From positions 1 through 53,878 of the forward strand of contig CANQWH010000003.1 in NCBI GenBank assembly GCA_947627495.1: a stretch of DNA of 53,878 nucleotides, given 5' to 3'. A program made the translations under genes and the position numbers. This stretch comes from an uncultured Clostridia bacterium (GTDB taxonomy: Bacteria; Bacillota; Clostridia; TANB77; CAG-508). Under the pieces are notes generated by a model, which made no database searches, was not told where the DNA came from, and saw nothing but the letters and a program-made list of their open reading frames with translations. Positions 12,620 through 14,081 of the stretch are shown here, in pieces. The stretch's first letter is position 1. Each line of letters starts with the position of its first letter.

Positions 12620-12648
12620 TTGACAGCATATGTTACATATGCTAAACT
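12620..12648 (+). promoter_or_regulatory. sigma-A promoter with palindromic operator in the spacer
   Basis: TTGACA-17-TAAACT; AGCATATGTTACATATGCT. Confidence 0.8.
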
Positions 12649-12678
12649 AAATATAATTAATACTAGGAGGTGTAAAAA

Positions 12679-12855
12679 ATGGCAAAATTAACAGCGAGAA
12701 AAATGGCAAGACGTGATGGCACATTAAATATAAACGGTTATACGGCAACATTAGCAAAGGTTCCAACAGAACAATCTGGATTTGATGCAAACACAGAAAT
12801 TGAAATCGAATATAAAAAAGACAAAATCATTATAAAAAAACAACTACCAAAATAA
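12679..12855 (+). CDS. 58-aa AbrB/MazE-like DNA-binding protein (candidate Aca-like regulator)
   Basis: AGGAGG RBS; MAKLTARK...GYTATLAK...GFDANTEIEIEYKKDKIIIKK swapped-hairpin pattern; below ORF-track cut-off. Confidence 0.6.
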   Translation: MAKLTARKMARRDGTLNINGYTATLAKVPTEQSGFDANTEIEIEYKKDKIIIKKQLPK

Positions 12856-12888
12856 ATAAAAAAAATTAAAAAACTTTTATAAAAAGTA

Positions 12889-12917
12889 TTGACAACATAT
12901 GTAACATATGTTATAAT
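12889..12917 (+). promoter_or_regulatory. consensus sigma-A promoter with the same operator
   Basis: TTGACA-17-TATAAT; AACATATGTAACATATGTT. Confidence 0.85.
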
Positions 12918-12969
12918 ATAATTACAGCAAGGGAATACAGTAAATAAAAAATAGAAAGGATTGATAAAT

Positions 12970-13197
12970 ATGAAAAAATTAACAGTAAAAGAAATTTTAA
13001 ATTTAGAAGATGATGAATTAGAAAAGATGATGACAGAAGAAGAATTTGATAGAATGAAAAATTTAGGATTTGAGTACACATGGCAGTTATTAGATTCATT
13101 ACAAGATGGAGCTAGTTTAAGTGAATTAGAAGAAAACGAAGAATACGTAACAATTTCAGAATACTTAGATTATTTAGAAGAAACGAAAAACGTTTAA
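12970..13197 (+). CDS. small very acidic protein (candidate anti-defence)
   Basis: 75 aa, Glu/Asp-rich, AAAGGA RBS, directly upstream of cas5. Confidence 0.65.
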   Translation: MKKLTVKEILNLEDDELEKMMTEEEFDRMKNLGFEYTWQLLDSLQDGASLSELEENEEYVTISEYLDYLEETKNV

Positions 13198-13229
13198 TTA
13201 TACAATTATAAAAAGAAAGGTATTAAAAA

Positions 13230-13919
13230 ATGAAAATTTTAAAATTAAAATTATATCAAGAAAATGTATGTTACAGAAAGCCATTTTCATTCAAAGTTGC
13301 AGAAACATATCCTTTACCACCATATTCAACAGTTATAGGCATGTTGCATAATATTTTAGATGCTAAAAATGGAGAAACATATAAGTTTGATATTTCAATT
13401 CAAGGAACATATGCAAGTGTCTGTCATGATAATTATATGTGGGCAAGAAAATTTTTAAACAATGTAGAAAAAAAGAAATATGATAATGCAGATGCTATAA
13501 GAAAACCTTTAAAATTTACCGAACTTGTAGATGTTAATCTGATTTTACACATAAAAGCTGAAAACGAAATAATTGATAAAATTTATAATAATATTATCAA
13601 TGGACAGAAATCAATAATATTGGGTAGAAACTACGATATTGCAAGAGTTGATTATGTTGGAATAGTTGATTGCAAAGAAACTATTAAAGAAGGTACATTA
13701 GCTAATACTGCATATATAAAACCTGAAAATGTAAAAGAAATAAAAAATGATGCTAAAAAAGCATTCAAACCTGGAATAACATTTCATTTAAACACTTATT
13801 ACACTATAAAAAATGATTTAAGATATTTTGATAAAGTAAATGTTTTGTATTGTGAAAAAAATACAAAAGTTATAAACTGTGAAATTGACAATGAAAATGA
13901 TTTTATATTTTTTGTATAA
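13230..13919 (+). CDS. cas5: orphan type I-B Cas5 (Cas5b-like)
   Basis: N-terminal LYQENVCYRKPFSFKVAETYPLPPYSTVIGMLH and ILGRNYDIARVD match Cas5 I-B signatures; no other cas genes in the window. Confidence 0.85.
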   Translation: MKILKLKLYQENVCYRKPFSFKVAETYPLPPYSTVIGMLHNILDAKNGETYKFDISIQGTYASVCHDNYMWARKFLNNVEKKKYDNADAIRKPLKFTELVDVNLILHIKAENEIIDKIYNNIINGQKSIILGRNYDIARVDYVGIVDCKETIKEGTLANTAYIKPENVKEIKNDAKKAFKPGITFHLNTYYTIKNDLRYFDKVNVLYCEKNTKVINCEIDNENDFIFFV

Positions 13920-13923
13920 AATA

Positions 13924-13952
13924 TTGACAGTATAAATCAAATATGCTATAAA
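13924..13952 (+). promoter_or_regulatory. promoter for non-coding mini-array
   Basis: TTGACA-17-TATAAA; retains the operator half-site ATATGCT. Confidence 0.6.
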
Positions 13953-13962
13953 TAATATGTTA

Positions 13963-14043
13963 TTTTTAATATAAATAAATTAGAATTTAAATATAAATTT
14001 ATGTTAAGAAAATATTGTAATATAAATAAATTAGAATTAGTAA
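13963..14043 (+). CRISPR. CRISPR-like mini-array: 30-nt repeat, 21-nt spacer, degenerate repeat
   Basis: 21-bp core TAATATAAATAAATTAGAATT at 13967-13987 and 14018-14038; the first copy ends ATTTAAAT, a type I-B-like 8-nt handle. Confidence 0.55.
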
Positions 14044-14081
14044 AAAACTAATTGCAGAAATGTAACTAGTTTTCTTTTTTT
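14042..14081 (+). terminator. terminator after mini-array
   Basis: ACTAATTGCA-GAAA-TGTAACTAGT followed by a T run. Confidence 0.6.

What the first reader, a model, noticed from the sequence alone, without database searches (positions are those of the whole stretch)
12620..14081. Prophage moron with orphan cas5, acidic ORF and operator-controlled promoters: candidate anti-CRISPR locus
Seen: the locus is on the + strand, opposite to the late genes, at the att end. It holds an AbrB-like 58-aa gene, a 75-aa acidic gene and an intact type I-B cas5, with no cas3/6/7/8 nearby. Two strong promoters share a 19-bp palindrome between -35 and -10. Established: viral Cas5 homologues can inhibit type I-B Cascade (AcrIB3 in Listeria), and acr operons are typically autorepressed by small Aca proteins binding promoter palindromes. 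Inference: cas5 is a decoy subunit, the acidic ORF a second inhibitor, and the AbrB-like protein a new Aca-type regulator.
Basis: partly seen in the sequence, partly recalled or inferred. Interest (0 to 1): 0.8.

Follow-up and report, generated by a model that had tools for sequence, protein, structure and literature searches.

The report
Prophage solo Cas5 plus CRISPR-repeat mimics
A prophage of an uncultured gut Clostridia bacterium carries a stand-alone, strongly diverged copy of the CRISPR gene cas5, followed by two imitations of the CRISPR repeat, all behind repressor-controlled promoters; this most likely is a combined protein-and-RNA device for disarming the type I-B CRISPR immunity found in related bacteria.

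Summary
Window 12620-14081 has two consensus promoters whose whole -35/-10 spacer is a 19-bp palindrome, a basic 58-aa gene, an acidic 75-aa gene and an intact type I-B cas5. It lies at the lysin-proximal end of a prophage, and no other cas gene is in the assembly.

Unit 1 matches a real I-B repeat of the same bacterial family at 27 of 30 positions and is the best match in the whole genome.

The lineage does use type I-B: 4 of 17 congeneric and 40 of 400 family genomes searched, each with cas7 beside cas5. Some of their spacers partly match this prophage. The prophage Cas5 is the only solo copy. It is 44-53% identical to other Cas5b (56-100% among themselves), and its long beta-hairpin is rewritten.

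Best reading (about 0.6): an anti-CRISPR locus with an AcrIB3-like Cas5 decoy, a Racr/Cracr-like RNA and a non-HTH Aca-like repressor.

The 75-aa protein is a conserved phage module gene found in 28 loci without cas5, so nothing ties it to CRISPR. Nothing is shown experimentally. The scan earlier noted an analogous phage-borne orphan cas8e on other DNA.

The parts
12620..12648 (+). Promoter P1: TTGACA, 17 nt, TAAACT. A 19-bp perfect palindrome (12625-12643) fills the spacer; putative operator.
   Evidence: 10 of 12, TG before the -10; the exact motif occurs only here and at P2 in the whole assembly. Sequence read.
12679..12855 (+). 58-aa basic protein (pI 9.75), the putative repressor of P1 and P2; weakly AbrB/MazE/SpoVT-like.
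   Evidence: ORF, AGGAGG upstream. Pfam MazE_antitoxin E 0.011 and SymE_toxin E 0.015, both below cut-off; nearest Atlas clusters are viral ~55-aa proteins, 27-37% of them with PF04014, score 0.90; only 3 relatives; no PDB sequence match; pI.
12889..12917 (+). Promoter P2: TTGACA, 17 nt, TATAAT. The same palindrome (12894-12912) fills the spacer. Drives the 75-aa gene and cas5.
   Evidence: 12 of 12, extended -10.; homologous promoter with a variable palindrome in related phage loci.
12970..13197 (+). 75-aa acidic protein (pI 4.05), the conserved first gene of the regulated operon; function unknown.
   Evidence: at least 158 homologues, 57-76% identical; 28 loci, none with cas5; pLDDT 94.7, mostly helical; no fold match (best Z 4.0); charge and pI.
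13230..13919 (+). Solo, diverged type I-B cas5 (229 aa); candidate defective Cascade subunit.
   Evidence: family scores; only Cas5b hit in the assembly. (Cas5 fold). (nearest 59%, otherwise at most 53%). (long branch; 74 of 111 conserved columns kept; residues 61-110 only 32% like the consensus). (only solo copy of 41).
13924..13952 (+). Promoter-like site P3: TTGACA, 17 nt, TGC-TATAAA. It would start transcription about 3-4 nt before repeat unit 1.
   Evidence: Read. The consensus scan does not list it, because the scan requires T at the sixth position of the -10 hexamer.
13963..13992 (+). CRISPR-repeat mimic, unit 1, full length with a 3' handle-like end ATTTAAAT.
   Evidence: 4 mismatches in 30 to the repeats of three related genomes; best match in the whole 1.35-Mb assembly, next best 6 mismatches; 27 of 30 to the repeat of G367; the 26-nt core matches real I-B arrays across the family.
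13993..14013 (+). 21-nt pseudo-spacer between the two units.
   Evidence: sequence; no target above chance in the own genome; 130 natural spacers of relatives are 34-40 nt; no target found; viral Cracr pseudo-spacers are mostly 17-21 nt.
14014..14043 (+). CRISPR-repeat mimic, unit 2; the 5' 24 nt are conserved and the 3' end is degenerate, like a terminal repeat.
   Evidence: 7 mismatches. (22 of 30 to the G367 repeat; identical 21-nt core with unit 1).
14044..14085 (+). Weak hairpin followed by a T-run; possible end of the small RNA.
   Evidence: Read. The fold of 13958-14090 gives z -1.9. The terminator scan does not call it; the only site that scan calls is on the - strand at 14126-14096.

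Best explanation
This is a prophage anti-CRISPR locus aimed at the type I-B systems of the host's genus and family. It has three transcription units.

(1) The 58-aa basic protein is made from P1. As a dimer it binds the 19-bp palindrome that fills the -35/-10 spacer of both P1 and P2. It thus shuts down its own synthesis and the very strong P2 after an initial burst, which is Aca-type control.

(2) P2 drives the conserved 75-aa module protein (role unknown) and a diverged Cas5b. This Cas5 keeps the N-terminal core of the family, so it should still take the Cas5 place in Cascade, at the 5' handle of the crRNA next to Cas7. Its long beta-hairpin (residues ~61-110) is rewritten and lengthened. 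The complex it enters would therefore be defective, as shown for the Listeria Cas5 homologue AcrIB3.

(3) P3 makes a small RNA of two repeat mimics around a 21-nt pseudo-spacer. It would be bound and cut by Cas6 and loaded with Cas proteins. That would titrate them away from real crRNAs (Racr-like) or give a short complex with a regulatory target (Cracr-like).

Shown here: the anatomy, the family assignments, the solo status, the divergence, the repeat mimicry, and that the lineage has I-B. Inferred: every functional step.
For: Cas5:
- It is a real Cas5b by sequence and fold.
- It is the only Cas5b hit in the assembly.
- tblastn with all eight Cas proteins of a congeneric operon finds only this gene.

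The lineage uses I-B:
- 4 of 17 congeneric genomes and 40 of 400 family genomes searched have Cas5b.
- In all 40, a cas7 hit lies next to it on the same contig.
- The G011 locus is cas6-cas8b1-cas7-cas5-cas3-cas4-cas1-cas2 plus 63 repeats.

Arms race:
- 3 of 183 unique spacers from 11 arrays of relatives partly match prophage genes (42.1, 38.2 and 36.2 bits).
- One match is 31 of 38, with its 3'-half mismatches at every third base.
- 20 shuffled sets gave at most one hit of 36 bits or more each, in 4 of the 20 sets, and none above 38.2.

Divergence:
- 44-53% identity to 120 other Cas5b, which are 56-100% identical (median 70%) among themselves.
- A 99%-supported clade with one 59-63% relative, on a long stem (quick tree).
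- 74 of 111 near-invariant columns are kept, against at least 95 in every other sequence.
- Residues 61-110 are 32% like the consensus, against 85% for an operon copy; residues 1-60 are 75% like it.
- No closer full-length representative exists among 1.84 billion.

Repeat mimics:
- Best genome-wide match, on the cas5 strand, 44 nt after its stop, behind a promoter-like site.
- The 21-nt pseudo-spacer falls in the 17-21-nt range reported for viral Cracr RNAs (passages).

Operators:
- They are unique to P1 and P2.
- The same design recurs in related phage loci.

Precedents:
- AcrIB3 (passages).
- Racrs cluster with acr genes and sit just behind promoters.
- Aca14 represses its own operon and a neighbouring one that encodes AcrIF6 and a Cas5f homologue.
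- In Listeria, acr loci lie next to phage lysin genes.
Against: - No experiment and no RNA data: the four runs that hold the stretch are all DNA.
- This host's 91%-complete assembly has no cas genes and no array, so the locus has no visible target in its present host.
- Only one instance has its context in view. The 59% relative (P0001) lies on a 3.6-kb contig that I could not fetch.
- Nothing similar turned up in IMG/VR or the JGI metagenomes.
- AcrIB3 works through loss of an 18-residue hook. This Cas5 has no comparable deletion; it has insertions.
- The 75-aa gene and the promoter/operator module occur in 28 loci with no link to CRISPR. The module itself is therefore not diagnostic of anti-CRISPR function.
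- The pseudo-spacer has no target above chance.
- The repeat is AT-rich. Its 20-nt core alone occurs 10 times by chance-like matches in IMG/VR.
- P3 fails the scan's rule for the -10 hexamer.
Confidence: 0.6

Rival explanations
1. Matched hijack pair. The phage Cas5 is not merely a poison subunit. It is the dedicated cap for the phage's own short crRNA-like RNA. Together they build a truncated Cascade from host Cas6, Cas7 and Cas8b that represses a host promoter (the cas operon or a CRISPR-guarding toxin) or a competitor, as described for Cracr RNAs.
For: - cas5 and the mini-array are adjacent on one strand.
- Cas5 is the subunit that holds the 5' handle (established knowledge of type I Cascades, recalled).
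- The pseudo-spacer of 21 nt fits the viral Cracr range of 17-21 nt, and Cracrs are reported to work together with a co-encoded protein Acr.
- Unit 1 keeps a complete handle-like 3' end.
Against: - No target with a PAM-proximal match above chance in 33 cas loci of the family: 86 prefix hits against 58 +/- 50 for shuffles. The best full match, 18 of 21, is within expectation.
- No target in the own genome either.
- The handle variant ATTTAAAT also occurs in real arrays of the family (G378), so no special Cas5 is needed to read it.
- No host CreR/CreA-like mini-array was seen in the 5 cas loci scanned for repeat-like units outside their arrays.
Confidence: 0.15
2. Inert relic. A piece of a host type I-B locus (cas5 and the start or end of an array) was picked up by imprecise excision, with an internal deletion, and is decaying without function.
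For: - In the operon order cas5-cas3-cas4-cas1-cas2-array, a deletion would bring cas5 next to repeats.
- Unit 2 is degenerate at its 3' end and the spacer is truncated.
- Capture by imprecise prophage excision is the origin proposed for Cas-derived Acrs.
Against: - The ORF is intact over 229 codons, although only 44-53% identical to other Cas5b. It has an intact relative at 59-63%. This means long survival under selection.
- The fold is confidently predicted.
- It has its own ribosome-binding site, a 12-of-12 promoter with an operator, and a separate promoter-like site for the repeats.
- No fragments of cas7 or cas3 are anywhere in the assembly.
Confidence: 0.1
3. Inter-phage competition. The two repeats are a viral CRISPR mini-array whose spacer uses the host's I-B machinery against rival phages. 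The Cas5 is a helper or is unrelated.
For: Viral mini-arrays with host-like repeats that target related viruses are known (passages). Here the repeats are host-like.
Against: - The spacer is 21 nt, against 34-40 nt for 130 natural spacers of relatives. That is too short for normal type I interference (inference).
- There is no exact match in IMG/VR.
- The host assembly has no cas genes to use.
Confidence: 0.07
4. The repeat-like units are chance AT-rich look-alikes, and the Cas5 has been recruited for a role unrelated to CRISPR, for example as an RNA-binding protein of the phage.
For: - The genome is 27.8% G+C.
- The 20-nt core alone occurs 10 times in IMG/VR without flanking similarity.
- Single hits at 3 mismatches are at background level in family genomes (control columns).
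- In other phages the module carries cargo unrelated to CRISPR.
Against: - Unit 1 is the single best match in 2.7 Mb (both strands), at 4 mismatches against 6 for the next best.
- It matches at 27 of 30, including the 3' handle.
- A second copy lies 51 nt away.
- Both lie on the cas5 strand directly after the only cas gene of the genome.
Confidence: 0.05

Closest known systems
AcrIB3 of Listeria seeligeri mobile elements (Katz et al., bioRxiv 10.1101/2023.06.24.545427; summarised in mLife 2026, PMC13131331)
   Same: - A full-length Cas5 homologue of type I-B, encoded outside any cas operon on a mobile element.
- Far diverged from the operon copies and forming its own clade (AcrIB3 is 38% identical to the Listeria Cas5; here 44-53%).
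- The same proposed mode: it enters Cascade and makes it unable to engage DNA.
   Different: - A different host class. AcrIB3 homologues were reported from Listeria only.
- AcrIB3 lacks an 18-residue hook and has a 6-residue extra loop. This protein has no such deletion; it has a rewritten, longer hairpin and an 8-residue insertion.
- The AcrIB3 sequence was not on hand, so direct kinship was not tested.
- No activity is shown here.
Racr RNAs / solitary repeat units (Camara-Wilpert et al., Nature 2023, PMC10651486)
   Same: A CRISPR-repeat mimic in a prophage intergenic region, directly behind a promoter-like site, next to a candidate acr gene. It matches the subtype of the host lineage.
   Different: - Here there are two units with a short spacer, which SRUFinder's rules would call a mini-array and discard.
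- SRUs were described as not associated with cas genes; this one follows a cas5 homologue.
- 'I-B' does not occur in that paper's main text. Its supplementary tables were not read.
Cracr RNAs, viral crRNA-like regulatory RNAs (Liu et al., bioRxiv 10.1101/2024.10.29.618823)
   Same: The layout pseudo-repeat / pseudo-spacer / pseudo-repeat on a phage. The pseudo-spacer of 21 nt lies within the viral range of 17-21 nt. It is co-encoded with a protein inhibitor candidate. I-B is among the predicted target types.
   Different: Cracrs are defined by a match of at least 9 PAM-proximal bases to a host CreR/CreA target. None was found here. No case with a co-encoded Cas5 homologue is mentioned: 'Cas5' occurs 0 times in that text.
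Aca14-controlled double operon of Pasteurella multocida (Nucleic Acids Res 2026, PMC13551039)
   Same: A small non-HTH repressor whose inverted repeat lies in its own promoter and in the promoter of the next operon. That operon encodes an Acr and a Cas5 homologue (Cas5f there).
   Different: - Aca14 is a ribbon-helix-helix protein of a type I-F setting in Proteobacteria.
- The regulator here is weakly AbrB/MazE-like. That fold is not mentioned in the paper: 0 occurrences of AbrB, SpoVT or MazE.
- Many sister loci of the module here do carry RHH/Arc-like small genes.
Operon-encoded Cas5b (TIGR01895) of the same bacterial family
   Same: Family score above the cut-off, the same fold, and a conserved N-terminal 60 residues (75% like the consensus).
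   Different: Solo, on a prophage, on a long branch. One third of the near-invariant columns are changed and the hairpin 61-110 is rewritten.

Membership tests
Cas5b, type I-B (NCBIfam TIGR01895 / Pfam PF09704) | Sequence score above the curated cut-off | tested here: met
   121 bits against a cut-off of 96.7; PF09704 52.2 bits against 23.
Cas5b, type I-B (NCBIfam TIGR01895 / Pfam PF09704) | Cas5 fold | tested here: met
   AlphaFold2 mean pLDDT 88.8. Top Foldseek hits are Cas5 chains 8fcj_A, 4tvx_H and 8ip0_A, with E 7e-7 to 2e-6 and TM 0.49-0.59.
Cas5b, type I-B (NCBIfam TIGR01895 / Pfam PF09704) | Encoded within a cas operon next to cas7, as a working Cascade subunit | tested here: not met
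   No cas7, cas8b, cas6, cas3, cas1, cas2 or cas4 in the window or the assembly. All 40 other Cas5b hits in 400 family genomes have cas7 adjacent.
AcrIB3-type Cas5-derived anti-CRISPR | Cas5 homologue outside a CRISPR-cas locus, on a mobile element, forming its own diverged clade | tested here: met
   Prophage context. Solo. Clade with P0001 at 99% SH-aLRT on a long stem (quick tree).
AcrIB3-type Cas5-derived anti-CRISPR | Loss of the 18-residue hook that binds Cas8b, and gain of a 6-residue loop towards Cas7 | tested here: inconclusive
   The alignment shows no 18-residue deletion. It shows a 9-10-residue longer and rewritten hairpin, and an 8-residue insertion near residue 170. I could not map the Listeria hook onto this alignment.
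AcrIB3-type Cas5-derived anti-CRISPR | Sequence kinship with AcrIB3 itself | not testable with these tools
   The AcrIB3 sequence is in a preprint supplement that is closed. Reported homologues are limited to Listeria.
AcrIB3-type Cas5-derived anti-CRISPR | Inhibits type I-B interference and assembles into Cascade | not testable with these tools
   Needs an assay. A complex prediction with Cas7 could not be run because the queue was full.
Racr (solitary repeat unit) | At least 90% identity to a CRISPR repeat of the host lineage, intergenic, with a promoter just upstream | tested here: met
   27 of 30 to the G367 repeat. Intergenic. TTGACA-17-TATAAA ends 10 nt before the unit, though the scan does not list it.
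Racr (solitary repeat unit) | Solitary: no second (partial) repeat within 100 bp | tested here: not met
   A second unit lies 51 nt downstream, sharing an identical 21-nt core. By the published rule this is a mini-array.
Cracr (viral crRNA-like regulatory RNA) | Pseudo-repeat / short pseudo-spacer / pseudo-repeat; viral pseudo-spacers mostly 17-21 nt | tested here: met
   30 + 21 + 30 nt. Range quoted.
Cracr (viral crRNA-like regulatory RNA) | At least 9 PAM-proximal bases matching a cas or creT promoter of the target host | tested here: inconclusive
   33 cas loci (422 kb): 86 prefix hits of 10 or more against 58 +/- 50 for 300 shuffles; 21% of shuffles reach the observed count. The PAM is unknown and the AT-rich sequence gives high background.
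Aca (anti-CRISPR-associated repressor) | Small DNA-binding protein in or beside the acr operon, with an inverted repeat overlapping the promoter | tested here: met
   58 aa, pI 9.75. A perfect 19-bp palindrome lies between -35 and -10 of its own and the next promoter, and occurs nowhere else in the genome.
Aca (anti-CRISPR-associated repressor) | Helix-turn-helix (Aca1-13) or RHH (Aca14) domain | tested here: not met
   No HTH or RHH hit. Only sub-threshold MazE/SymE (AbrB-fold) hits and an Atlas lead. The profile finds nothing in the PDB.
Aca (anti-CRISPR-associated repressor) | Represses the promoter | not testable with these tools
   Needs an EMSA or a reporter assay.
Viral CRISPR mini-array for inter-virus competition | Host-like repeats and a spacer of normal length that matches related viruses | tested here: not met
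   Spacer of 21 nt against 34-40 nt in 130 natural spacers. No exact match in IMG/VR.

The most novel reading that the evidence does not exclude
The phage Cas5 and the mini-array are a co-evolved pair. The phage Cas5 caps the 5' handle of the phage's own short crRNA-like RNA and nucleates a truncated Cascade out of host Cas6, Cas7 and Cas8b. That complex is reprogrammed to silence the host's cas operon or a CRISPR-guarding toxin. At the same time the same protein displaces native Cas5 from immune complexes. This would be the first case of a virus supplying both a subunit and a guide to take over a class 1 effector.
Probability: 0.12. Interest if true: 0.85.

Novelty: new variant of a known kind. 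Interest (0 to 1): 0.6.

Why it matters
Cas-derived anti-CRISPR proteins and repeat-mimicking anti-CRISPR RNAs are both recent discoveries, studied so far in Listeria and in Proteobacteria.

This locus would extend both to uncultured gut Clostridia and to type I-B. It puts them side by side, with a Cas5 homologue directly followed by a crRNA-like RNA. I found no such pairing in the papers I could search.

Cas5 is the subunit that holds the crRNA 5' handle. The pairing therefore makes a concrete question testable: does a viral Cas subunit cooperate with a viral guide-like RNA?

The locus also points to a family of phage modules with a conserved strong promoter, an exchangeable operator, an exchangeable small repressor (RHH-like or AbrB-like) and exchangeable cargo. 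That family could be mined for further counter-defence genes. It would add a third DNA-binding fold to the Aca-type regulators.

Tried and rejected
- **Close relatives of the locus.** None found in the phage collection (blastn), in IMG/VR with the Cas5 protein or the 75-aa protein alone, or with a clade-specific back-translated motif in IMG/VR and the JGI metagenomes.
- **Rfam.** Only three sub-threshold snoRNA-like hits (E 3-8) in 11800-14300.
- **Pseudo-spacer targets.** Own genome: 32 hits at up to 4 mismatches against 31.6 for shuffles. Six and then 33 cas loci of relatives: no enrichment. IMG/VR: no exact match.
- **Host crRNA-like mini-arrays beside cas operons.** Only two degenerate repeats at a contig end in G017, probably the end of a second array.
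- **The 20-nt repeat core in IMG/VR.** 10 matches, none extending into the flanks and none near a Cas5; taken as chance.
- **Fold of the 75-aa protein.** No match in the PDB (Foldseek E at least 2; VIA-align best Z 4.0) or in BFVD. The Atlas gave no usable hit.
- **Profile of the 58-aa family against PDB sequences.** Nothing relevant.
- **Sequencing runs.** Four DNA runs of one study hold the stretch, and no RNA holder is listed.
- **Complex prediction of the prophage Cas5 with a congeneric Cas7.** It gives no result either way.
- **First spacer screen.** Its length filter and E-value hid the partial matches that one search found later.
- **TIGR01595.** This was the wrong Cas7 family for this subtype; tblastn with the congeneric Cas7 replaced it.
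- **Careful tree.** It did not finish; the quick tree is reported.

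
Full report
**Setting**

The window is a whole 53.9-kb contig (C3) of a 1.35-Mb, 100-contig, 27.8% G+C assembly rated 91% complete. Records holding relatives of its genes are titled as uncultured Clostridia MAGs. The only runs that hold the stretch are four DNA runs of one rabbit-gut study.

Host genes run to 11874: tRNA-Met, FtsH, TilS, DnaB, ribosomal protein L9, an HTH gene and a pyridoxal/HMP-kinase-like gene.

A prophage fills the rest, mostly on the - strand:
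- a RelE-like remnant;
- a CHAP-LysM lysin (15047-15844) and a holin;
- tail fibre and tape-measure genes;
- the large terminase;
- a DnaB-like helicase;
- an HTH repressor (50619) and an Ltp lipoprotein;
- a serine recombinase at the contig end.

The finding therefore lies at the prophage end that is distal to the recombinase and next to the lysis genes. It is transcribed in the opposite direction to them. Katz et al. describe Listeria acr loci beside phage lysin genes (passages).

**The observation**

All stated elements are present.
- P2 (12889-12917) is a 12-of-12 sigma-70 consensus with an extended -10. P1 (12620-12648) scores 10 of 12.
- In both, the 17-nt spacer with one base on each side is a perfect 19-bp palindrome.
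- The 15-nt core occurs exactly only at these two places in the window and in the whole assembly.
- The 58-aa protein is basic (pI 9.75). The 75-aa protein is acidic, with 22 D+E against 7 K+R and pI 4.05.
- The 229-aa protein is Cas5b: TIGR01895 gives 121 bits against a cut-off of 96.7.
- Its model has the Cas5 fold: pLDDT 88.8, with best PDB matches to Cas5 chains of I-B, I-E and I-A Cascades.

Forty-four bases after the cas5 stop, on the same strand, lie two 30-nt units (13963-13992 and 14014-14043). They share an identical 21-nt core and are separated by 21 nt.

Unit 1:
- differs at 4 of 30 positions from the CRISPR repeats of three related genomes;
- is the single best match to those repeats in the entire assembly, the next best having 6 mismatches;
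- matches the repeat of family genome G367 at 27 of 30, including the 3' end that would become the crRNA 5' handle.

Unit 2 matches at 22 of 30 and is degenerate at its 3' end, like a terminal repeat.

Just upstream is TTGACA, 17 nt, TGC-TATAAA (13924-13952). This would start an RNA 3-4 nt before unit 1. The consensus scan did not list it, because it demands T at the last position of the -10 hexamer. A weak hairpin and a T-run follow unit 2.

Natural spacers in five related arrays are 34-40 nt (n = 130), so this is not an ordinary array.

**Does the lineage have type I-B?**

Yes.
- The prophage Cas5 finds homologues in 4 of 17 congeneric genomes and 40 of 400 genomes of the family.
- The locus in G011 is cas6, cas8b1, cas7 (Cst2/DevR), cas5, cas3, cas4, cas1, cas2 and a 63-repeat array.
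- In all 40 genomes a cas7 hit lies directly beside the cas5 hit on the same contig.
- The window's cas5 is the only solo copy among the 41.

In the own assembly:
- HMM searches for cas1, cas3 and one cas7 model find nothing. tblastn with all eight G011 Cas proteins finds only this cas5.
- A k-mer scan finds no array.
- This is not proof of absence. The genes that flank the G011 cas locus map to the very start of own contig C23 (positions 42-2923), so the corresponding place is an assembly break.

**Evidence of conflict**

I compared 196 spacers (183 unique) from 11 arrays of relatives with the window. Three partly match prophage genes:

| Spacer from | Contiguous match | Full length | Window position | Gene hit | Bits |
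|---|---|---|---|---|---|
| G367 | 24 of 25 | 27 of 35 | 36427-36461 | HNH endonuclease gene | 42.1 |
| G005 (same genus) | 22 of 23 | 31 of 38 | 43702-43739 | directionality-factor-like gene | 38.2 |
| G011 (same genus) | 21 of 22 | 25 of 35 | 43311-43345 | gene of unknown function | 36.2 |

The G005 match has its 3'-half mismatches at every third base.

Twenty shuffled spacer sets gave at most one hit of 36 bits or more each, in 4 of the 20 sets, and none above 38.2. The shuffles keep only base composition, so this is modest evidence. It suggests that I-B systems of the family have met phages related to this one.

**How unusual is the Cas5?**

- Its nearest known protein, P0001, is 59% identical by BLAST (63% in the alignment). 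It lies on a 3.6-kb contig that I could not fetch.
- All others are 53% or less.
- An exhaustive HMMER search of 1.84 billion cluster representatives gives no full-length protein above 50%.
- 120 other Cas5b sequences are 56-100% identical to each other (median 70%); the window protein is 44-53% identical to them. Only five of the 120 were checked here to lie in operons.
- In a quick maximum-likelihood tree (the careful search did not finish), the window protein and P0001 form a 99%-supported pair. The stem is 0.94 and the tips 0.6 changes per site, while operon copies have short branches.
- Of 111 columns that are at least 90% conserved in the 120, the window protein keeps 74 and P0001 keeps 73. 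Every other sequence keeps at least 95 (median 109.5).
- The change is concentrated. Residues 1-60 are 75% like the consensus. Residues 61-110 are 32% like it, against 85% for the operon copy of G005. They also carry 9-10 extra residues.
- In the model this stretch is a long beta-hairpin with a short helix at its tip.
- From what I recall of Cascade structures, Cas5 has a thumb-like hairpin beside the kink of the crRNA handle, near Cas7 and the large subunit. I did not map this here.
- AcrIB3 is reported to lack an 18-residue hook needed for Cas8b binding and to have an extra loop towards Cas7 (passages of a review). The window protein has no such deletion. If it is a decoy, it reached that state by a different change.

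**The regulatory module is older than the cas5 cargo**

The 75-aa protein belongs to a family of at least 158 proteins that are 57-76% identical. I fetched 18 IMG/VR loci and 10 genome loci that encode it. None has a Cas5 homologue.

In most of the 16 loci inspected:
- the operon containing the 75-aa gene is preceded by a homologous A/T-rich upstream region and TTGACA, a 17-nt spacer, TATAAT;
- the spacer is a palindrome whose sequence differs from phage to phage;
- in at least three of them (L025, L034, L041) a second copy of the same palindrome lies further upstream, in L025 in front of the small upstream gene, as in the window.

The small upstream gene is usually RHH-like. Its C-terminus reads ...KYLKKN, and one copy hits the Arc-like repressor PHROG. 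In L023, L035, L045 and the window it is a different small protein.

For the window's protein the only fold evidence is weak:
- Pfam MazE_antitoxin and SymE_toxin at E about 0.01;
- Atlas clusters of viral ~55-aa proteins, of which 27-37% carry PF04014;
- a profile of the family that finds nothing in the PDB.

Downstream of the 75-aa gene the cargo varies. 13 of 22 downstream proteins hit PHROGs labelled HNH endonuclease, through an AP2-like DNA-binding part. The rest are unknown.

The 75-aa protein folds confidently (pLDDT 94.7), mostly as helices, but matches no known fold.

I conclude that cas5 and the repeat mimics were inserted as cargo into a pre-existing, repressor-controlled phage module. 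The acidic protein has no demonstrated tie to CRISPR.

**Mechanism proposed**

Shown: the anatomy and the comparisons above. Inferred: the following.

1. On entry into a I-B-bearing host, or in the lysogen, P2 fires strongly. The 58-aa protein made from P1 then occupies both palindromes and throttles both promoters. This is the logic established for Aca proteins. A close precedent is Aca14, a non-HTH repressor that controls its own operon and a neighbouring one encoding AcrIF6 and a Cas5f homologue.
2. The diverged Cas5 competes with native Cas5 for the crRNA handle and Cas7. It yields Cascade that cannot engage DNA, as shown for AcrIB3.
3. Cas6 processes the P3 RNA. The product either soaks up Cas6 and Cas7, like a Racr, or forms a short complex, like a Cracr. 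Viral Cracr pseudo-spacers are mostly 17-21 nt, and Cracrs act together with a co-encoded protein Acr.

I could not find a target for the 21-nt pseudo-spacer above chance in the own genome, in 33 cas loci of the family or in IMG/VR. The choice between the two RNA modes therefore stays open.

**Rivals**

- Matched hijack pair: phage Cas5 as the dedicated cap of the phage RNA (0.15).
- Inert relic of captured host DNA (0.10). Against it stand the intact ORF despite deep divergence, the intact diverged relative, and the dedicated promoters.
- Mini-array for competition between phages (0.07). Against it stands the spacer length.
- Chance look-alike repeats with an unrelated Cas5 role (0.05). Against it stand the genome-wide rank, the extent of the match, the duplication and the position.

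**Novelty**

Each ingredient is known: Cas-derived Acrs, repeat-mimic RNAs and Aca-type control. This is not a new category.

Three things appear new:
- the setting, type I-B in uncultured gut Clostridia;
- a Cas5 lineage independent of AcrIB3;
- the direct pairing of a Cas5 homologue with a crRNA-like mini-array. I did not find this pairing in the full-text searches or in the passages read from the Racr and Cracr papers.

Supplementary tables of those papers and of Katz et al. (358 orphan viral cas genes) were not available to me and may list similar loci. An AbrB-type Aca-like repressor would also be new relative to the 2026 survey, which does not mention that fold.

I did not test it.

**Verdict**

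The anti-CRISPR reading is the best supported (about 0.6) for cas5, the small RNA and the repressor. It is not supported for the acidic protein. Nothing is shown experimentally, and only one instance has its context in view.

Noticed in passing
window 14183-14747 (- strand): A RelE/YafQ-like toxin gene appears split into two frames. 14412-14537 (41 aa) matches the N-terminus of YafQ, and 14183-14395 (70 aa) matches the C-terminal part of RelE; their starts are 142 nt apart, so they are out of frame. A 65-aa putative antitoxin gene lies upstream at 14550-14747. Probably a decayed toxin-antitoxin pair between the anti-CRISPR locus and the lysin.
   Followed up: partly
window 52198-53753 (+ strand): The serine recombinase is in two ORFs about 340 nt apart, at the contig end: a resolvase N-terminal domain (106 aa) and a recombinase plus zinc-ribbon part (298 aa). 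It may be broken, interrupted, or have a mis-called start.
   Followed up: no
L022, L023, L025, L032, L034, L035, L042, L044-L047 (5' UTR of the 75-aa gene's operon): Most sister loci share a conserved leader between the operator promoter and the first gene of the operon: AAGAGATAAG, a short hairpin, then CACTCT, just before the ribosome-binding site. The window lacks it. It may be an RNA-level control element, as Aca proteins are reported to bind 5' UTR motifs.
   Followed up: no
own genome C15:13900-14300 (- strand): An intergenic stretch holds a partial 3' end of the genus repeat, followed 26 nt later by a 30-nt unit with 6 mismatches to the repeat. A GC-rich palindromic element lies next to it. 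Possibly the worn relic of a lost array; at this mismatch level chance is not excluded.
   Followed up: partly
own genome C23:42-2923: The genes that flank the CRISPR-cas locus in congeneric G011 map to the very start of contig C23. The assembly breaks where a cas locus would be expected, which leaves open whether this host has one.
   Followed up: partly
L014 (G017) 14028-14121, - strand: Two degenerate repeats (5 and 7 mismatches) spaced 64 nt apart lie upstream of the cas operon, 300 nt from the contig end. Probably the distal end of a second array, though a host crRNA-like regulator is not excluded.
   Followed up: no
window 51377-52030 (+ strand): An Ltp-type surface lipoprotein with a PASTA domain, a known kind of prophage superinfection-exclusion protein, lies next to the repressor and recombinase.
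   Followed up: no
window 42687 and own genome C64:1013: An identical 30-mer turned up on the prophage and on contig C64 during the repeat scan. This hints at a second copy of part of the phage, or a related prophage, in the assembly.
   Followed up: no
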